Shown: in pieces, positions 4,800-13,511 of the stretch
Layout: the number at the start of each line of letters is the position of its first letter
Numbering within the stretch: the stretch's first letter is position 1
Virus record (IMG/VR): IMGVR_UViG_2711768010_000006
Strand: one strand, 5' to 3'
From: a virus
Taxonomy: Duplodnaviria; Heunggongvirae; Uroviricota; Caudoviricetes
Length of the DNA: 13,511 nt
Notes under the pieces: model-generated
Told to the model about the DNA's origin: nothing
Databases searched by the model: none
What the model saw: the letters and a program-made list of their open reading frames with translations, nothing else
Position numbers and translations under genes: made by a program

Positions 4800-7700
4800 A
4801 TGGGTAAAGGCAGCAGTAAGGGGCATACCCCGCGCGAAGCGAAGGACAACCTGAAGTCCACGCAGCTGCTGAGTGTGATCGATGCCATCAGCGAAGGGCC
4901 GGTTGAAGGTCCGGTGGATGGATTAAAAAGCGTGCTGCTGAACAGTACGCCGGTGCTGGACAGTGAGGGGAATACCAACATCTCCGGCGTCACGGTGGTG
5001 TTCCGGGCAGGTGAGCAGGAGCAGTCACCGCCGGAGGGATTTGAATCCTCCGGCTCCGAGACGGTGCTGGGTACGGAAGTGAAATATGACACGCCGATCA
5101 CCCGGACCATCACGTCGGCAAACATTGACCGACTGCGTTTTACCTTCGGTGTACAGGCACTGGTGGAAACCACCTCAAAGGGAGACAGGAATCCGTCTGA
5201 AGTTCGCCTGCTGGTTCAGATACAGCGTAACGGTGGCTGGGTGACGGAAAAAGACATCACCATTAAGGGCAAAACCACCTCGCAGTATCTGGCCTCGGTG
5301 GTGGTGGATAACCTGCCGCCGCGCCCGTTTAATATCCGGATGCGCAGGATGACGCCAGACAGCACCACAGACCAGCTGCAGAACAAAACGCTCTGGTCGT
5401 CATACACCGAAATCATCGATGTGAAACAGTGCTACCCGAACACGGCACTGGTCGGCGTACAGGTGGATTCGGAGCAGTTCGGCAGCCAGCAGGTGAGCCG
5501 TAATTATCATCTTCGCGGGCGCATTCTGCAGGTGCCGTCGAACTATAATCCGCAGACGCGGCAATACAGCGGTATCTGGGACGGAACGTTAAAACCGGCA
5601 TACAGCAACAACATGGCCTGGTGTCTGTGGGATATGCTGACCCATCCGCGCTATGGCATGGGGAAACGTCTTGGTGCGGCAGATGTGGATAAATGGGCGC
5701 TGTATGTCATCGGCCAGTACTGTGACCAGTCGGTGCCGGACGGCTTTGGCAGCACGGAGCCGCGCATCACCTGTAATGCCTGGCTGACCACACAGCGCAA
5801 GGCGTGGGATGTGCTCAGTGATTTCTGCTCGGCGATGCGCTGTATGCCGGTATGGAACGGGCAGACGCTGACGTTCGTGCAGGACCGACAGTCGGATAAG
5901 GTGTGGGCCTATAACCGCAGTAATGTGGTGATGCCGGATGATGGCGCGCCGTTCCGCTACAGTTTCAGCGCCCTGAAAGACCGCCATAATGCCGTTGAGG
6001 TGAACTGGATTGACCCGGATAACGGCTGGGAGACGGCGACAGAGCTTGTGGAGGATACGCAGGCCATTGTCCGTTACGGTCGTAACGTCACGAAGATGGA
6101 TGCCTTTGGCTGTACCAGCCGGGGGCAGGCACACCGCGCCGGGCTGTGGCTGATTAAAACGGAACTGCTGGAGACGCAGACCGTGGATTTCAGCGTGGGT
6201 GCTGAAGGGCTTCGTCATGTACCGGGCGATGTCATTGAAATCTGCGATGATGACTATGCCGGTATCCGCACCGGCGGGCGCGTGCTGGCGGTGAACAGCC
6301 AGACCCGGACGCTGACGCTCGACCGTGAAATCACGCTGCCATCCTCCGGCACCACGCTGATAAGCCTGGTTGACGGGCAGGGGAATCCGGTCAGCGTGGA
6401 GGTCCAGTCCGTCACCGACGGCGTGAAGGTAAAAGTGAGCCGTGTTCCTGACGGTGTTGCTGAATACAGCGTGTGGGGGCTGAAGCTGCCGACGCTGCAC
6501 CAGCGATTGTTCCGCTGCGTGAGTATCCGTGAGAACGACGACGGCACGTATGCCATCACCGCCGTGCAGCATGTGCCGGAAAAAGAAGCCATCGTGGATA
6601 ACGGGGCGCACTTTGACGGCGACCAGAGCGGCACGGTAAATGGTGTCACGCCGCCAGCGGTGCAGCACCTGACCGCAGAAGTCACCGCAGACAGCGGGGA
6701 ATACCAGGTGCTGGCCCGCTGGGACACGCCGAAGGTGGTGAAGGGCGTGAGCTTCCTGCTTCGCCTGACCGTGGCAGCGGATGACGGCCGTGAGCGGCTG
6801 GTCAGCACGGCCCGGACGACGGAAACCACTTACCGCTTCACACAACTGGCGCTGGGGAACTACAGGCTGACAGTCCGGGCAGTAAATGCGTGGGGGCAGC
6901 AGGGCGATCCGGCGTCGGTATCGTTCCGGATTGCCGCACCGGCAGCGCTGTCGCGGATTGAGCTGACGCCGGGCTATTTTCAGATAACCGCCACGCCGCA
7001 TCTTGCGGTTTATGATCCGACGGTACAGTTTGAGTTCTGGTTCTCGGAAAAGCGGATTGCGGATATCAGGCAGGTTGAAACCACAGCACGCTATCTTGGC
7101 ACGGCGCTGTACTGGATAGCCGCCAGTATCAATATCAAACCGGGCCATGATTATTACTTTTATATCCGCAGTGTGAACACCGTTGGCAAATCGGCATTCG
7201 TGGAGGCTGTTGGTCAGCCGAGTGATGATGCATCCGGTTATCTGGATTTTTTCAAAGGCGAGATAGGGAAAACCCATCTGGCTCAGGAGCTGTGGACGCA
7301 GATTGATAACGGTCAGCTTGCGCCTGACCTGGCTGAAATCAGGACGTCCATTACGGATGTCAGCAATGAAATCACGCAGACCGTCAATAAGAAACTGGAA
7401 GACCAGAGTGCGGCAATTCAGCAGATACAGAAGGTTCAGGTTGATACAAATAATAACCTGAACAGCATGTGGGCTGTGAAGCTGCAGCAGATGCAGGACG
7501 GACGCCTTTATATCGCGGGTATTGGTGCCGGTATTGAGAACACCCCTGACGGCATGCAGAGTCAGGTGCTGCTGGCGGCGGACAGGATTGCGATGGTTAA
7601 TCCTGCGAATGGCAACACAAAACCGATGTTTGTTGGTCAGGGCGATCAGATATTCATGAACGACGTGTTCCTGAAACGCCTGACGGCCCCCACCATTACC

Positions 7701-8297
7701 AGCGGTGGAAATCCATCGGCATTTTCCCTGACTCCGGACGGAAAGCTGACCGCTAAAAATGCGGATATCAGTGGCAGTGTGAATGCGAACGCCGGGACGC
7801 TCAACAATGTCACGGTAAATGAAAACTGTACGATTAAGGGCATGCTGGAGGCGACTCAGGTCAGAGGTGACTTCGTTAAAGCTGTATCCAAATCATTTCC
7901 GAAACAGGCTGGTACGTGGGGTAACACGGAAACACCAAACGGGACGGTTACAGTCACCATAAGCGATGATCATAACTTTGACCGCCAGATTATTATTCCG
8001 CCCATTATTTTTAACGGTATAGCGTATGACGATCCGGGGAGCGGAAATAACCCAGGAGGCACGCGATACACGGGTTATGGTTTTGAAGTTCGCAAAAACG
8101 GCGTATTAATCGCATCCAGAGAAACTAAAGGTGCCATTCCCGGTAGTTACAGTGCAGTTATTGATATGCCTAGTGGTGGTGGTAGCGTCACTCTGGAGTT
8201 TAAGATTTTCCAGAAAGGCAATCAGGGGGCAGGCAATATCACCGACTGTACGGTGATTGTGACCAAAAAAGCGGCTTCCGGCATCAGTATTCGTTGA
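4800..8297 (+). CDS. J: Host specificity / central tail fibre protein J (lambda gpJ-like)
   Basis: 1165-aa ORF with a GGAG 8 nt upstream of the ATG. The N-terminal ~800 aa match my recollection of lambda gpJ closely ([34 protein letters not shown]...). A central block and the last ~150 aa look different from lambda, and the protein is 33 aa longer than lambda's 1132. Confidence 0.92.
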
Positions 8298-8319
8298 AAT
8301 ATTTATAACCCCAATAAAT

Positions 8320-8346
8320 GGCGTCAGGAATGACGCCTTTTTTATT
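8320..8346 (+). terminator. Rho-independent terminator downstream of J
   Basis: Perfect 7-bp stem GGCGTCA / TGACGCC with a GGAA loop, followed directly by TTTTTTATT, starting 23 bp after the J stop. Confidence 0.6.
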
Positions 8347-8367
8347 GCAGAAAAGCGAGAGGTAATT

Positions 8368-8967
8368 ATGCGTAAAGTTTGTGCAGCCATTTTGTCCGCA
8401 GCCATTTGCCTGGCCGTATCCGGTGCGCCTGCATGGGCGTCTGAACATCAGTCCACGCTGAGCGCGGGGTATCTTCATGCCCGGACCAACGTTCCCGGCA
8501 GTGATGATCTGAACGGGATTAACGTGAAATACCGTTATGAGTTTACGGATACGCTGGGGCTGGTGACGTCATTCAGCTATGCAGGAGACAAGAATCGCCA
8601 GCTGACCCGTTACAGCGATACCCGCTGGCATGAAGATTCCGTTCGTAACCGCTGGTTCAGCGTAATGGCGGGGCCGTCTGTGCGCGTGAATGAATGGTTC
8701 AGCGCGTATGCGATGGCGGGTGTGGCTTACAGCCGTGTGTCGACTTTTTCCGGGGATTATATCCGCGTAACTGACAATAAGGGGAAAACGCACGATGTGC
8801 TGACCGGAAGTGATGACGGTCGCCACAGCAACACGTCTCTGGCGTGGGGAGCTGGCGTGCAGTTTAACCCGACCGAATCCGTGGCCATTGATATTGCTTA
8901 TGAAGGCTCCGGCAGTGGCGACTGGCGCACTGACGGTTTCATCGTGGGTGTCGGTTATAAATTCTGA
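8368..8967 (+). CDS. lom: Lom outer membrane protein (Ail/Lom/PagC/Rck family beta-barrel)
   Basis: 199-aa ORF with a signal peptide (MRKVCAAILSAAICLAVSGAPAWA) and a C-terminal aromatic beta-barrel end (FIVGVGYKF). It matches lambda Lom in position, between J and stf. Confidence 0.9.
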   Translation: MRKVCAAILSAAICLAVSGAPAWASEHQSTLSAGYLHARTNVPGSDDLNGINVKYRYEFTDTLGLVTSFSYAGDKNRQLTRYSDTRWHEDSVRNRWFSVMAGPSVRVNEWFSAYAMAGVAYSRVSTFSGDYIRVTDNKGKTHDVLTGSDDGRHSNTSLAWGAGVQFNPTESVAIDIAYEGSGSGDWRTDGFIVGVGYKF

Positions 8968-8993: not shown

Positions 8994-9020
8994 AGCCCGC
9001 CGGTTCAGGCGGGCTTTTTT
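8994..9020 (+). terminator. Rho-independent terminator downstream of lom
   Basis: Stem GCCCGCC / GGCGGGC with a GGTTCA loop, followed by TTTTTT, 27 bp after the lom stop and just before the stf start. Confidence 0.6.
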
Positions 9021-9031
9021 GTGGGGTGAAT

Positions 9032-12000
9032 ATGGCAGTAAAGATTTCAGGTGTACTGAAAGACGGCACAGGAAAACCGGTACAGAACTGCACAATCCAG
9101 CTGAAAGCAAAACGTAACAGCACCACGGTGGTGGTGAACACGCTGGCCTCAGAAAATCCGGATGAAGCCGGGCGTTACAGCATGGACGTTGAGTACGGNN
9201 NNNNNNNNNNNNNNNNNNNNNNNNNNNNNNNNNNNNNNNNNNNNNNNNNNNNNNNNNNNNNNNNNNNNNNNNNNNNNNNNNNNNNNNNNNNNNNNNNNNN
9301 NNNNNNNNNNNNNNNNNNNNNNNNNNNNNNNNNNNNNNNNNNNNNNNNNNNNNNNNNNNNNNNNNNNNNNNNNNNNNNNNNNNNNNNNNNNNNNNNNNNN
9401 NNNNNNNNNNNNNNNNNNNNNNNNNNNNNNGGATTCCCGCCGTCACATGCCGGGACCATCACCGTGTATGAAGATTCCCGACCCGGTACGCTGAATGATT
9501 TTCTCGGTGCCATGACGGAGGATGATGCCCGTCCGGAGGCTCTGCGCCGTTTTGAGCTGATGGTGGAAGAGGTGGCGCGTAACGCGTCCGCAGTGGCACA
9601 GAACACGGCAGCCGCGAAGAAATCAGCCAGCGATGCCAGCACATCAGCCCGTGAGGCGGCAACCCATGCGACTGATGCTGCAGATTCAGCACGTGCAGCC
9701 AGCACGTCAGCCGGACAGGCCGCTTCGTCGGCTCAGTCAGCGTCTTCCAGCGCAGGAACGGCATCAACAAAGGCCACTGAAGCCTCAAAAAGTGCTGCCG
9801 CTGCAGAGTCCTCAAAAAGCGCGGCGGCTACCAGTGCCGGTGCGGCGAAAACGTTAGAAACGAATGCGGCAGCGTCACAACAATCAGCAGCCACTTCTGC
9901 ATCCACCGCGACCACGAAAGCGTCAGAAGCTGCCACCTCAGCCCGGGATGCGTCGGCTTCAAAAGAGGCGGCAAAATCATCAGAAACGAACGCATCATCA
10001 AGCGCCAGTAGCGCAGCTTCCTCGGCGACGGCGGCTGCAAATTCTGCGAAGGCGGCCAAAACGTCCGAGACGAACGCCAGGTCTTCTGAAACGGCAGCGG
10101 GACAGAGTGCCTCAGCTGCGGCAGGCTCAAAAACAGCGGCTGCGTCGTCTGCCAGCGCCGCGTCAACAAGTGCCGGGCAGGCCTCAGCCAGTGCCACCGC
10201 CGCCGGAAAATCGGCAGAAAGCGCCGCATCATCCGCTTCAACAGCCACAACGAAGGCTGGCGAAGCCACTGAGCAGGCCACGGCAGCAGCGAGGTCAGCT
10301 TCCGCAGCGAAGACATCCGAAACGAACGCGAAAGCGTCGGAAACCCGTGCAGAATCCTCAAAAACGGCTGCCGCATCGTCCGCCAGTTCGGCGGCGTCAT
10401 CGGCATCATCGGCGTCTGCTTCAAAAGATGAGGCGACCAGACAGGCGTCAGCAGCGAAGGGCAGCGCCACGACGGCATCCACGAAGGCGACAGAGGCTGC
10501 TGGTAGTGCGACGGCAGCAGCTCAGAGCAAAAGTACGGCGGAATCTGCAGCAACGCGCGCTGAGACAGCGGCAAAACGGGCAGAGGATATTGCATCCGCC
10601 GTGGCGCTTGAGGATGCGAGCACGACGAAAAAGGGGATAGTACAGCTCAGTAGTGCGACTAACAGCACTTCCGAGTCACTGGCGGCAACACCAAAAGCCG
10701 TTAAGGCCGCGTATGACCTGGCTAACGGGAAATACACCGCACAGGATGCAACGNNNNNNNNNNNNNNNNNNNNNGTGGCTGGATTCTCAGGGAGCATTTA
10801 ACCATCCATACTGGATGTGCAAGGGTTCCTGGTCTTATGGCAATAATAAAATCATTACTGATACTGGCTGCGGTAATATTCATCTCGCCGGAGCTGTCAT
10901 TGAAGTAATGGGGATAAAGTCAGCGATGACGATCCGCATTACCACTCCGACCACATCCAGCGGTGGCGGAACAACCAACGCCCAGTTTACCTATATTAAT
11001 CACGGAACAGATTATTCACCTGGCTGGCGAAGGGACTATAACTCCAGAAATAAGCCAACGGCATCAGAGATCGGGGCGCTACCGTCAGGTGGAACAGCAG
11101 TATCATCAGTTAATCTGGCTTCAAAAGGTCGGGTAGCCGCGCTGACAGACAATACGCAGGGGGCAGCAGGTCTTGAGTTATACGAGGTGTATAACAACGG
11201 ATATCCAACAGCGTATGGAAATATCATTCACCTGAAAGGGATGACAGCCGTTGGCGAAGGTGAGTTACTCATCGGCTGGAGTGGTACAAGCGGTGCTCAT
11301 GCTCCGGCATTTATTCGTTCACGACGGGATACGACCGACGCAAACTGGTCGCCGTGGGCGCAGCTTTACACCTCGGCTCATCCTCCTGCAGAGTTTTATC
11401 CAGTCGGTGCACCAATCCCGTGGCCATCAGATACCGTTCCGTCTGGTTATGCCCTGATGCAGGGGCAGACTTTTGACAAATCTGCTTACCCGAAACTTGC
11501 AGCCGCTTATCCGTCAGGCGTGATCCCTGATATGCGTGGCTGGACGATTAAGGGCAAGCCCGCCAGTGGTCGTGCCGTATTGTCTCAGGAACAGGATGGC
11601 ATTAAATCGCACACCCACAGCGCCAGCGCATCCAGTACGGATTTGGGGACGAAAACCACATCGTCGTTTGATTACGGCACTAAATCCACGAATAACACCG
11701 GGGCGCATACGCACAGTCTGAGCGGCTCTACAAGTTCAGCTGGGGCCCACCAACATAGTCAGACTGGGCCCAGAACGAATAGCGGGAGTCAACCTACTGG
11801 AATGTTTCCGGCAGGGAGTACTCAAGTTAGCGGGACTAATCAGGTTGGTATCAGTGGCTCATTAACCAGTGGCACCTCCCAATGGGTAGGTAAATCATCT
11901 TCAGAAGGAAACCATACACACTCACTGTCCGGCACAGCAGCATCTGCGGGTGCACACGCGCATACTGTCGGTATTGGTGCTCATACGCACTCTGTTGCGA

Positions 12001-12098
12001 TTGGTTCACATGGACACACCATCACCGTTAACGCTGCTGGTAACGCGGAAAACACCGTCAAAAACATCGCATTTAACTATATTGTGAGGCTCGCATAA
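9032..12098 (+). CDS. stf: Side tail fibre protein Stf, interrupted by two runs of N with a frame change across the second
   Basis: The N-terminus from the ATG at 9032 ([33 protein letters not shown]) matches lambda Stf; the GTG at 9026 in the ORF track is a less likely start. The middle is an Ala/Ser/Thr-rich repeat, followed by a tail fibre repeat motif ([41 protein letters not shown]). The C-terminal part (ORF 10653..12098, frame 0) ends with the His-rich segment and ...[22 protein letters not shown], as in lambda Stf. The two ORFs are one gene split by the N runs. Confidence 0.75.
9199..9430. other. Run of 232 N (assembly gap or masked sequence) inside stf
   Basis: Directly visible in the sequence. 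The flanking coding frame is preserved across it. Confidence 0.99.
9598..10620 (+). repeat. Coding tandem repeat region in the stf shaft (Ala/Ser/Thr-rich, recurring K-T/S-S-E-T-N-A units)
   Basis: Motifs such as [28 protein letters not shown] and [37 protein letters not shown] recur at irregular spacing of roughly 30-80 aa. The low-complexity GC-rich DNA also opens spurious ORFs in other frames and on the minus strand (9733..10482, 9828..10595, 9864..10640). Boundaries are approximate. Confidence 0.6.
10754..10774. other. Run of 21 N inside stf, with a reading-frame change across it
   Basis: Directly visible. The upstream stf frame ends at a stop at 10799-10801, while the downstream stf frame is the one opened by ORF 10653..12098. 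Confidence 0.99.
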
Positions 12099-12679
12099 TG
12101 GCATTCAGAATGAGTGAACAAGCACGGACCATAAAAATTTATAACCTGCTGGCCGGAACTAATGAATTTATTGGTGAAGGTGACGCATATATTCCGCCTC
12201 ATACAGGTCTGCCTGCAAACAGTACCGATATTGCACCGCCAGATATTCCGGCTGGTTTCGTGGCTGTTTTCAACAGTGATGAGTCATCGTGGCATCTCGT
12301 TGAAGATCATCGGGGTAAAACGGTTTATGACGTGGCTTCCGGCGACGCGTTATTTATTTCTGAACTCGGCTCATTACCGGAAAATGTCACCTGGTTATCC
12401 CCGGAAGGGGAGTTTCAGAAGTGGAACGGCACAGCCTGGGTGAAGGATACGGAAGCAGAAAAACTGTTCCGGATCCGGGAGGCGGAAGAAACAAAAAACA
12501 GCCTGATGCAGGTAGCCAGTGAGCATATAGCGCCGCTTCAGGATGCTGTGGATCTGGAGATCGCAACGGAGAAAGAAACCTTGTTGCTGGAAGCTTGGAA
12601 AAAGTATCGGGTGTTGCTGAACCGTGTTGATACATCAACTGCACCGGATATTGAATGGCCAGTAGCACCTATAGGGTAA
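12098..12679 (+). CDS. tfa: Tail fibre assembly protein Tfa (chaperone)
   Basis: 193-aa ORF beginning [54 protein letters not shown], matching lambda Tfa. Its start shares 1 bp with the stf stop (TAATG). Confidence 0.9.
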
Positions 12680-12759
12680 ATTCGTAATGATTACCTAAAT
12701 ACGTTATTCTTTTGTTAAAAAAGTGATTTTGCTATAGGTAGGGAGTATGTTCTTGGATT

Positions 12760-12795
12760 AAGAATAAAAAATCGCCATGAAAGAGCTTCATGGCG
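12760..12795 (-). terminator. Rho-independent terminator reading on the minus strand
   Basis: Perfect 9-bp inverted repeat CGCCATGAA / TTCATGGCG (12773-12781 and 12787-12795) with a 5-nt loop. On the minus strand the hairpin is followed by ATTTTTTATTCTT (reverse complement of 12760-12772). Confidence 0.55.
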
Positions 12796-13428
12796 AGTAC
12801 ATAAACGTACAAAATGTGATGAAAGTAGAGTGGCGTAAGCCACTATATTAAGATATGACAATAGCGAAGAAAAGTAAATAACATTTTATGGACGTTTAAT
12901 TGTTAATTATAAAAACTAGAGTGCCCGATATTGTTTATCTTGCTTTAAAATAATGTACTCAAACCAAATTTTTGAGCTAAAAGCTCAAATAATATAAATG
13001 CAATAATAATGTTTAATAAGACAATTAGCTTGCTTTGTATTTTCATTTCGGAATACTGTTAAGTAACTTTGATGACCCTAACAATAGATCGGAATTTTCT
13101 TAGAGTCAATGGTCACTGTTTTTGCTTGCAAAGCAAATGTTTTGGTGGTTATAAGTCGTCTTAATATAGTCACGCATGCAACTTGTTCCATGCGGAGATT
13201 AAAGATTGGAATATAACGCGAAGATGGAATTAAATTACATTTGCAATAATTAATTTATTATTACTCAATAATTACCGATATTATTATTGTAAATTAATCA
13301 TTAGAATGCAAAAAGAAATGTAACGGCAAAATAAGAGGACGATAGCTGAGAAAAAAGCGTGCTTTCCCAATCTGGGGCAAATCACGTCTGAATGACACCT
13401 GAAAACAGGTGGTAGCCTCAAGAAGGCT

Positions 13429-13511
13429 GGTGATGCTGCCAACTTACTGATTTAGTGTATGATGGTGTTTTTGAGGTGCTCCAGTGGCTTCTGTTTCTAT
13501 CAGCTGTCCCT
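13429..13511 (+). mobile_element. IS1 insertion sequence, left end only (continues beyond the window)
   Basis: The sequence GGTGATGCTGCCAACTTACTGATTTAGTGTATGATGGTGTTTTTGAGGTGCTCCAGTGGCTTCTGTTTCTATCAGCTGTCCCT matches, as far as I can recall it, the IS1 left terminal inverted repeat and the start of insA. Confidence 0.9.
13484..13511 (+). CDS. insA: IS1 InsA, first 9 codons only (GTG start; truncated by the window edge)
   Basis: GTG GCT TCT GTT TCT ATC AGC TGT CCC translates to MASVSISCP, the InsA N-terminus, at the expected distance from the IS1 inverted repeat. Confidence 0.7.

What the first reader, a model, noticed from the sequence alone, without database searches (positions are those of the whole stretch)
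7250..8297. J has a lambda-like body but a divergent central block and C-terminal receptor-binding region
The first ~800 residues agree with lambda gpJ as I recall it. From about ...[44 protein letters not shown] the sequence departs from lambda, and the final ~150 residues (...[74 protein letters not shown]...[16 protein letters not shown]) also look different. In lambda the C-terminal ~150 aa determine binding to LamB, so this phage may use a different receptor. The protein is also 33 aa longer than lambda J.
Basis: partly seen in the sequence, partly recalled or inferred. Interest (0 to 1): 0.5.

Follow-up and report, generated by a model that had tools for sequence, protein, structure and literature searches.

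The report
Lambda-like tail tip, 434-type receptor domain
The tail-tip protein J of this Shigella sonnei prophage is an ordinary, already-catalogued mosaic: a lambda-like body, the longer shaft segment also found in phage 21, and the receptor-binding tip of phage 434, which predicts the porin OmpC rather than LamB as receptor.

Summary
J (window 4800-8297, 1165 aa) is 96.9% identical to lambda J over aa 1-805. It drops to 39% over aa 806-940 with 28 extra residues, returns to 91% over aa 941-1005, and drops to 37% over aa 1006-1165.

Neither divergent block is new. The central block is 97% identical to phage 21 J. It covers the alpha-helical shaft and the top of the beta-prism fibre. The last 160 residues are 94.4% identical, without gaps, to the receptor-binding domain of phage 434, whose receptor is OmpC according to the literature. 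This is inferred by homology and was not tested.

The central block does not determine the receptor. Phage 21 carries it and uses LamB, and the block assorts freely with tip types in databases. The long shaft is the majority form and probably the ancestral one; lambda and 434 carry a 28-aa deletion.

The same full-length architecture is published in phages cdtI, Ayreon, phi458 and ev099 (about 96% nt identity). The 434-type tip DNA occurs in 39% of complete E. coli genomes. Verdict: real, explained, already known, low interest.

The parts
4800..8297 (+). Gene J, the central tail fibre / tip attachment protein: 1165 aa plus stop codon.
   Evidence: ORF, translation. NCBIfam lambda_TipJ NF049904 scores 2313 bits against a cut-off of 1950, covering 1-1165 of the protein and 1-1163 of the 1163-position profile. 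Six Pfam gpJ domains are present. The gene order H-M-L-K-I-J-lom-stf-tfa is intact.
4800..7214 (+). J body, aa 1-805: hub domains plus FNIII-1 and FNIII-2. Lambda-like.
   Evidence: 96.9% aa identity to lambda, 97.5% to 434 and 97.3% to phage 21, with no gaps. Pfam FNIII-A_GpJ 86-207, Phage-tail_3 330-498, Ig_J 610-714, Ig_J_second 718-818.
7215..7619 (+). Central block, aa 806-940: alpha-helical shaft (AHS) plus the top of the beta-prism fibre (CSF). Phage 21-type 'long' allele.
   Evidence: 97.0% identity to phage 21 J with no gaps; 39-40% identity to lambda and 434 with 28 gaps. The DNA joints lie at about 7200-7260 and about 7620. The AlphaFold2 monomer model predicts helices at aa 811-823, 826-836 and 841-888 (pLDDT 55-72). 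Pfam leaves aa 819-871 uncovered. Domain names follow PMC11101478.
7305..7397 (+). Segment absent from lambda and 434 J: aa 836-866, i.e. 21 + 7 gap columns, 28 residues net, inside the predicted long helix and the preceding NGQLAP break.
   Evidence: Gap positions. A distant homologue (P0208, 40% identity) aligns through this segment with only a 3-aa gap but needs 26 gaps against lambda. The segment therefore looks ancestral and lambda looks deleted.
7620..7814 (+). Conserved lower CSF linker, aa 941-1005, shared by all lambda-like J alleles. Probable homologous-recombination anchor between the two variable cassettes.
   Evidence: 87.7-90.8% aa identity to lambda, 434 and 21 over aa 941-1005. 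DNA identity is 0.85-0.98 to both lambda and 434. Most invariant columns of the 41-sequence alignment fall in this stretch and just beyond it.
7815..8294 (+). Receptor-binding domain (RBD), aa 1006-1165. Phage 434-type allele; predicted OmpC binder.
   Evidence: 94.4% identity to 434 J with no gaps, 40% to phage 21, 37% to lambda. Pfam Ig_GpJ_C covers 1029-1164. The model has pLDDT 74-92 for aa about 1024-1159. The best structural matches are gpJ central-fibre structures 9wca, 8xck, 8xcj and 9wcb. RBD classes are discrete in phages: 74 records at 90% identity or more, 169 below 60%, none between.
8320..8345 (+). Terminator-like hairpin plus T-run after J.
   Evidence: A terminator is annotated at the equivalent place in phage 434.

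Best explanation
J is a recombinational mosaic built from three known cassettes of the lambda-like tip attachment protein family.

1. A lambda-like hub and FNIII body (aa 1-805).
2. The 'long' central cassette, as in phage 21 (aa 806-940: alpha-helical shaft plus upper beta-prism). It has 28 residues that lambda and 434 lack.
3. The phage 434 (h434) receptor-binding domain (aa 1006-1165).

A conserved 65-aa lower-fibre segment (aa 941-1005) joins cassettes 2 and 3. It probably serves as the crossover site.

Proposed mechanism, by analogy with the solved lambda and A8 gpJ structures. The trimeric C-terminal Ig-like domains dock their loops into a trimeric porin, here predicted to be OmpC rather than LamB. 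Binding spreads the tips of the domains. The twist travels up the beta-prism, the helical shaft flips, the FNIII strings release and the tail tip opens.

What is shown: the sequence mosaic, the placement of the joints, the cassette identities, the domain family and fold, and the independent assortment of the cassettes.

What is inferred: OmpC as receptor (homology to 434), the trimer mechanism (analogy), and a shaft up to about 4 nm longer (28 residues x 1.5 A, if all are helical).
For: - Cassette identities: central block 97% to phage 21 against 39% to lambda and 434. RBD 94.4% to 434 with no gaps, against 37-41% to lambda and 21. Body about 97% to all three.
- Lambda, 434, 21 and this J show all four combinations of two central types and the RBD types. 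That requires recombination.
- DNA identity changes abruptly at about 7200-7260, about 7620 and about 7800.
- Among database homologues, long and short central blocks combine with 434-type and 21-like RBDs in every combination.
- 434 uses OmpC, and the 434 tail-fibre gene transfers OmpC use to lambda (PMC3509688, PMC11101478, PMC12502783). Phage 21, which has the long central block, natively uses LamB (PMC11336670).
- Family membership: NCBIfam lambda_TipJ at 2313 bits and the full Pfam gpJ domain set.
- Fold: the RBD is modelled at pLDDT 74-92 and hits gpJ fibre structures, including A8 gpJ bound to OmpC.
- RBD indels relative to lambda lie at lambda aa 1011, 1043, 1078, 1099 and 1109-1114. 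These are the loop and indel hot spots 1012/1048/1077/1107 described in PMC6646904.
- The identical architecture is present in cdtI, Ayreon, phi458, ev099 and others at about 96% nt identity.
Against: - No adsorption data exist for this allele. It differs from 434 at 9 positions within aa 1006-1165 (I1006V, Q1008E, A1032S, K1036Q, V1037A, D1047N, V1136I, H1138Q, R1143G).
- Single J substitutions can add receptors in phage 21 (PMC11336670), so the exact porin or OmpC-variant range is not proven.
- No 434-type RBD structure has been solved. The nearest is A8, at about 48-53% identity.
- The monomer model is poor for the trimeric beta-prism (pLDDT below 50 for aa 883-1024), so shaft geometry is not established.
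- The host is a Shigella sonnei draft contig that ends in IS1 and has assembly gaps in stf. Whether the prophage is functional is unknown.
Confidence: 0.88

Rival explanations
1. Despite its similarity to 434, the tip binds a receptor other than OmpC, or an extended set (LamB, OmpF, or only particular OmpC variants such as that of Shigella).
For: There are nine substitutions relative to 434 in aa 1006-1165. In phage 21 one J mutation adds OmpC use and a few more add OmpF (PMC11336670). Engineered gpJ tips A8 and 1A2 discriminate between natural OmpC variants (PMC11338833).
Against: The RBD is 94.4% identical to 434 with no indels, and aa 1051-1110 are 100% identical. The allele belongs to a tight, discrete cluster: 74 phage records at 90% or more and none between 60 and 90%. 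It is only 37% identical to lambda's LamB-binding tip, with indels at the loop hot spots described in PMC6646904.
Confidence: 0.1
2. The central block is itself a host-range or co-receptor determinant, so the two divergent blocks act together.
For: It lies in the fibre. It is one of the most variable parts of J outside the tip. Earlier authors noted nested indels in a region of J outside the specificity region and could not explain them (PMC6646904); those indels may correspond to this block.
Against: The same block (97% identity) is in phage 21, which uses LamB (PMC11336670). 434 uses OmpC with the short block. Long and short blocks combine freely with RBD types. In the lambda structures this region is the helical shaft and upper prism, far from the receptor (PMC11101478).
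Confidence: 0.05
3. The divergence from lambda arose by gradual in-place mutation, not by cassette exchange.
For: Within nt 7440-7620 the DNA is still 58-70% identical to lambda, so the block is homologous rather than foreign.
Against: The flanks are 95-100% identical and the transitions are sharp. Each block has a near-identical donor type in a different phage (21 and 434) whose other block differs. All combinations exist. PMC6646904 reports strongly incongruent trees for whole J and for its specificity region.
Confidence: 0.03
4. The gene sits in a decaying, non-inducible prophage, so its receptor specificity has no present function. This reading does not exclude the best explanation.
For: The window is a 13.5-kb contig of a Shigella sonnei draft assembly that ends inside IS1. 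The stf gene contains runs of N, so its integrity cannot be judged.
Against: The ORFs from M through J, lom and tfa are complete, and H is open to the contig's 5' edge. J has no frameshift or premature stop and matches the full-length family profile end to end.
Confidence: 0.25

Closest known systems
Phage 434 J (central tail fibre, UMO75286.1, OL657226; the classical h434 host-range allele)
   Same: The body is 97.5% identical. The receptor-binding domain (window aa 1006-1165) is 94.4% identical with no gaps. The receptor reported for 434 is OmpC (PMC3509688, PMC11101478).
   Different: 434 has the short lambda-type central block (40% identity, 28 gaps; 1137 aa in total). There are nine substitutions in the RBD.
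Phage 21 J (UMO75436.1, OL657228)
   Same: The body is 97.3% identical. The central block aa 806-940 is 97.0% identical with no gaps, i.e. the same long shaft.
   Different: The RBD is only 40% identical with 17 gaps. The native receptor of phage 21 is LamB (PMC11336670).
Lambda J (NP_040600.1; structures 8IYK, 8XCK, 8XCJ, 8XCI)
   Same: Same family, same domain order (hub domains, FNIII-1, FNIII-2, AHS, CSF, RBD) and same gene neighbourhood. The body is 96.9% identical and the lower CSF 91%.
   Different: Lambda lacks 28 residues of the shaft. Its RBD is 37% identical, with indels at the loop hot spots described in PMC6646904. It binds LamB.
J of phages cdtI, Ayreon, phi458, ev099, ev243, PhiR42_1, mEp332, Kati, phiSTEC1575-Stx2k
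   Same: Same full-length 3498-nt gene with the same cassette combination, at 95.3-96.1% nt identity over 100% of the gene. phi458 is 100% identical over nt 7230-7630.
   Different: Allelic differences only. I found no receptor experiments for these phages in the searchable literature.
A8 gpJ chimera (PDB 9WCA closed state; 9WCB bound to OmpC of E. coli EDL933)
   Same: A lambda-type J carrying a natural non-lambda tip that uses OmpC (PMC11338833). It is the best PDB sequence hit (E = 1.3e-128) and the best fold hit.
   Different: It is a different RBD allele, about 48-53% identical over the aligned fibre and RBD, and it has the short lambda shaft.

Membership tests
Lambda-type tip attachment protein J (NCBIfam NF049904 lambda_TipJ) | Full-length match to the curated family profile above its cut-off | tested here: met
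   2313.4 bits against a cut-off of 1950, covering protein 1-1165 and profile 1-1163 of 1163.
Lambda-type tip attachment protein J (NCBIfam NF049904 lambda_TipJ) | Domain order FNIII-A, Phage-tail_3 hub, Ig_J, Ig_J_second, Phage_Tail_Tip, Ig_GpJ_C | tested here: met
   All six Pfam domains are above their cut-offs and in the expected order.
Lambda-type tip attachment protein J (NCBIfam NF049904 lambda_TipJ) | Position in the tail gene cluster H-M-L-K-I-J, followed by lom, stf and tfa | tested here: met
   Called genes and their Pfam families on the contig. Same order as in lambda and 434.
Lambda-type tip attachment protein J (NCBIfam NF049904 lambda_TipJ) | Forms the trimeric tail tip and central fibre of a siphovirus virion | not testable with these tools
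   Only a monomer could be modelled. The trimeric prism region has pLDDT below 50.
434-type (h434) receptor-binding domain | Near-identity to the 434 J C-terminal domain without indels | tested here: met
   94.4% identity over 160 aa with no gaps.
434-type (h434) receptor-binding domain | Belongs to a discrete sequence cluster separate from the other J tips | tested here: met
   tblastn against phages: 74 records at 90% or more, 169 below 60%, none in between.
434-type (h434) receptor-binding domain | Infection or adsorption depends on OmpC | not testable with these tools
   Known for 434 and for lambda h434 from the literature (PMC3509688, PMC11101478). No data for this allele.
Lambda-type LamB-binding receptor-binding domain | Sequence identity to lambda J aa 978-1132, including loop lengths | tested here: not met
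   36.7% identity and 17 gap columns, at lambda positions 1011, 1043, 1078, 1099 and 1109-1114.
Long (phage 21-type) central shaft cassette | Collinear near-identity to phage 21 J aa 806-940, including the 28 residues missing in lambda | tested here: met
   97.0% identity with no gaps. 65 phage records carry it at 90% nt identity or more.

The most novel reading that the evidence does not exclude
The shaft-length difference is a functional tuning element that acts independently of the receptor-binding tip. The long shaft has 28 more residues than lambda, the size of four heptads, which would add up to about 4 nm if all are helical. It could set how far the tip reaches through O-antigen or capsule, or set the threshold or speed of the helix-flip trigger that opens the tail. 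On this reading lambda and 434 are derived short-shaft variants, and the variability of this site has a selective basis: distant J relatives have 200-500 extra residues between the segments that match the shaft and the prism. No experiment I could find has addressed this. PMC6646904 reports unexplained nested indels outside the specificity region of J that may correspond to this block.
Probability: 0.15. Interest if true: 0.45.

Novelty: already known. Interest (0 to 1): 0.12.

Why it matters
The practical value is limited but real. It allows a sequence-based receptor call (OmpC, not LamB) for a Shigella sonnei prophage. It also shows that lambda J is a poor length reference for its own family. 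The 1163-position family profile, about two thirds of J genes in sequenced phages, and distant relatives all carry the longer shaft. The result reinforces the established picture that lambda-like J evolves by swapping a shaft cassette and a tip cassette across conserved linkers. That modularity is already exploited to retarget lambda particles to OmpC for DNA delivery in the gut (PMC11338833). The only open question touched is what the shaft-length difference does.

Tried and rejected
- **Low-GC dip.** One search showed a dip to 28.6% GC at 9001-9500. I suspected a foreign insert downstream of J. It is a run of 232 N in the draft assembly, so it is an artefact.
- **Receptor experiments for same-architecture phages.** I searched the literature for phi458, Ayreon, mEp332, the PhiR phages, ev099 and phiSTEC1575-Stx2k. 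No receptor data were found. The Ayreon and phi458 papers do not address J.
- **Identity of the 1A2 tip.** I tried to find out whether the OmpC-targeting 1A2 tip of PMC11338833 is the 434 type by searching that paper's supplements for peptides from this RBD. No gpJ sequences are held there, so the question is unresolved.
- **Monomer AlphaFold2 model of aa 800-1165.** It is usable for the RBD and for helix boundaries only. The trimeric beta-prism (aa 883-1024) is below pLDDT 50, and I drew no geometric conclusions from it.
- **Simple heptad scoring of the shaft.** It gives only a moderate signal (5-6 of 8 a/d positions hydrophobic, with register shifts). 'Four heptads' is therefore a statement about size, not a demonstrated coiled-coil register.
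- **Antisense ORFs.** ORFs opposite J (5589..7277, 7646..7843 and 8106..8405 on the minus strand) were considered. I dismissed them as shadow ORFs of a GC-rich coding strand; nothing is annotated there in lambda, 434 or 21.
- **Locus L003 (phi458).** It was fetched but never became readable by scripts, so the phi458 comparisons rest on BLAST output only.
Full report
**What is in the window.** The window is the complete 13,511-bp contig CWVQ01000118.1 of assembly GCA_001250875.1. A 100%-identical protein fragment is recorded from Shigella sonnei, in a cluster of 158 members (P0002). The contig carries a lambda-type tail gene cluster: the 3' part of H, then M, L, K, I, J (4800..8297, + strand, 1165 aa), lom, a side tail fibre gene interrupted by assembly gaps, and tfa. 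J matches the curated NCBIfam model lambda_TipJ end to end (2313 bits against a cut-off of 1950; profile 1-1163 of 1163) and has all six Pfam gpJ domains in order.

**Check of the observation.** I fetched lambda J (1132 aa) and aligned it globally.
- aa 1-805: 96.9% identical, no gaps.
- aa 806-940: 39.3% identical, 28 gap columns (window aa 836-856 and 860-866 have no lambda counterpart).
- aa 941-1005: 90.8% identical.
- aa 1006-1165: 36.7% identical, with indels of +2, +6, +1, +2 and -6.

At the DNA level the transitions are sharp. Identity is at least 0.92 up to about 7200, falls to 0.38 by 7260, recovers to 0.87-0.98 at 7620-7770, and falls again after 7800. The one refinement is that there are two separate divergent blocks with a conserved linker between them.

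**What the two blocks are.** Both have near-identical counterparts in classical lambdoid phages, but in different phages.
- The central block (aa 806-940) is 97.0% identical, without gaps, to phage 21 J. It is only 39-40% identical to lambda and 434.
- The C-terminal 160 aa are 94.4% identical, without gaps, to phage 434 J. They are only 40% identical to phage 21 and 37% to lambda.
- 434 J itself is essentially lambda J up to about aa 975 and differs only in the tip.

Lambda has the short block with the lambda tip. 434 has the short block with the 434 tip. Phage 21 has the long block with the 21 tip. This protein has the long block with the 434 tip. That pattern requires recombination between the blocks.

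A module survey of 120 database homologues found every combination of central-block type (long, close or diverged; short) with 434-type or 21-like tips. Maddamsetti et al. had already reported strongly incongruent trees for whole J and for its specificity region (PMC6646904).

The 65-aa segment between the blocks (aa 941-1005) is 88-91% identical in all three reference phages. Most invariant columns of a 41-sequence alignment lie in that segment and just beyond it. It is the obvious crossover anchor, though that is an inference.

- Here Pfam Ig_J_second (FNIII-2) ends at aa 818, Phage_Tail_Tip covers 872-1000 and Ig_GpJ_C covers 1029-1164.
- An AlphaFold2 monomer model of aa 800-1165, built on 41 homologues, predicts helices at aa 811-823, 826-836 and 841-888 (pLDDT 55-72). 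The RBD is confidently modelled (aa about 1024-1159, pLDDT 74-92). The trimeric prism is unreliable (pLDDT below 50).
- The central block is therefore the AHS plus about the first 50 residues of the CSF. The 28 extra residues lie around a short NGQLAP break and in the long helix.
- The model's best fold matches are the solved gpJ fibres 9WCA, 8XCK, 8XCJ and 9WCB. By sequence, the best PDB hit is 'A8 gpJ 713' (E = 1.3e-128), followed by lambda gpJ.
- No 434-type tip has been solved.
- The indels that distinguish this RBD from lambda's sit at lambda aa 1011, 1043, 1078, 1099 and 1109-1114. These coincide with the four indel hot spots (1012, 1048, 1077, 1107) that PMC6646904 proposed as specificity loops.

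**Receptor inference.** Replacing lambda J by the 434 tail-fibre gene makes lambda bind OmpC, the receptor of 434 (PMC3509688; PMC11101478; also PMC12502783). The original identification of the 434 receptor as porin protein Ib (OmpC) by Hantke in 1978 is from my own knowledge. The sequenced lambda h434 imm21 hybrid (PMC9119081) matches the window's J 3' end (hit H26).

J tips fall into discrete classes. Of 243 phage records with a match to this RBD, 74 are at least 90% identical and 169 are below 60%, with none in between. This allele sits inside the 434 class, so OmpC is the best-supported receptor.

This is still an inference. The allele differs from 434 at nine positions within aa 1006-1165. 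Phage 21 can gain OmpC use through one J mutation (PMC11336670). Engineered OmpC-binding tips discriminate between natural OmpC variants (PMC11338833).

**The central block is not a receptor determinant, and lambda is the odd one out.**
- Phage 21 carries the same long block and natively uses LamB (PMC11336670). 434 uses OmpC with the short block.
- Among phage records, about 156 carry the long form: 65 at 90% nt identity or more, and 96 at 60-80% identity over the same length. Only 85 carry the lambda-type short form.
- The NCBIfam family profile has 1163 positions.
- Homologues at 66-71% identity (P0133, P0136, P0146) are collinear with the long form, with no gaps, but need 28 gaps against lambda.
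- A 40%-identical relative (P0208) aligns through the 'extra' segment with only a 3-aa gap but needs 26 gaps against lambda.
- The long shaft is therefore most likely ancestral, and lambda and 434 carry a 28-aa deletion.
- In still more distant relatives, the segments that match the shaft and the prism are separated by about 200-500 additional residues. This junction is a general length-variable site of the family.
- PMC6646904 noted nested indels outside the specificity region and could not explain them. They may correspond to this block. That is the only loose end.

**How common it is.**
- The same 3498-nt gene with the same cassette combination is in phages ev099, phi458, Ayreon, cdtI, PhiR42_1, ev243, phiSTEC1575-Stx2k, Kati, mEp332 and others at 95.3-96.1% nt identity.
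- 25 phage records cover at least 80% of nt 7250-8297, and more than 100 others share only the 434-type 3' part.
- The 434-type RBD DNA (nt 7810-8297) is present at 90% identity or more in 2113 of 5426 complete E. coli genomes.
- The exact protein is already in public databases.

**Mechanism.** The following is by analogy; the steps are inferred for this protein. The trimeric Ig-like tips insert their loops into the trimeric porin. The bottoms of the tips spread. New hydrogen bonds compact and twist the beta-prism. The twist is amplified upward and the helical shaft flips and partly refolds into strands. The FNIII strings dissociate and the hub opens for gpI and gpH exit and DNA ejection (PMC11101478). 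A shaft longer by 28 residues would add up to about 4 nm to the closed fibre if it is fully helical. I could not test that, and it is the basis of the 'novel case'.

**Verdict.** The feature is an ordinary, previously sequenced mosaic of known cassettes. Novelty: already known. Interest: low.

Noticed in passing
window 9199-9430 and 10754-10774: Runs of N (232 and 21 bases) lie inside the side tail fibre gene downstream of lom. The apparent drop to 28.6% GC at 9001-9500 is an artefact of these assembly gaps. The integrity of stf cannot be judged.
   Followed up: yes
window 13429-13511: The contig ends inside an IS1 element; the left inverted repeat GGTGATGCTGCCAACTTACTGAT starts at 13429. The same order tfa, AT-rich spacer, IS1A is annotated in E. 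coli MLI023K1 (locus L006).
   Followed up: yes
window 12680-13428: An AT-rich stretch (31-37% GC) of about 750 bp between tfa and IS1 has no ORF of 60 aa or more. It contains a 33-aa strongly hydrophobic ORF on the minus strand (12945..13046, MKIQSKLIVLLNIIIAFILFELLAQKFGLSTLF). This could be a small membrane peptide or a moron gene.
   Followed up: no
window 12441-12639 (+): There is an Rfam match to IS009 (RF02111) at 218 bits against a gathering score of 117, covering the full-length model. It lies inside the 3' part of the tail fibre assembly gene tfa (12098..12679).
   Followed up: no
window 5589-7277 (-): A 562-aa open reading frame runs antisense to the GC-rich body of J. Nothing is annotated at the equivalent place in lambda, 434 or 21. 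It is most likely a shadow ORF of the coding strand.
   Followed up: partly
window 8320-8337 and 8994-9015 (+): Terminator-like hairpins with T-runs follow J directly and follow lom. They match the terminators annotated at the same places in phage 434, so lom appears to sit between two terminators as a separate unit.
   Followed up: partly
database proteins P0003, P0006, P0011, P0013, P0015, P0085, P0091, P0093: Several database 'proteins' join unrelated N-terminal domains to a J C-terminus 73-98% identical to this one over the query. The N-terminal domains include a YmfL-type regulator, an ABC ATPase, a tape measure and a portal. They look like assembly or annotation chimeras, or recombination scars, at the J 3' end.
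   Followed up: no
distant J homologues P0208, P0230, P0243, P0247, P0255, P0257, P0265: In J relatives of 30-40% identity, the segments homologous to FNIII-2 plus the shaft and to the beta-prism are separated by about 200-500 extra residues. The shaft-prism junction is therefore a general insertion site in the wider family.
   Followed up: partly
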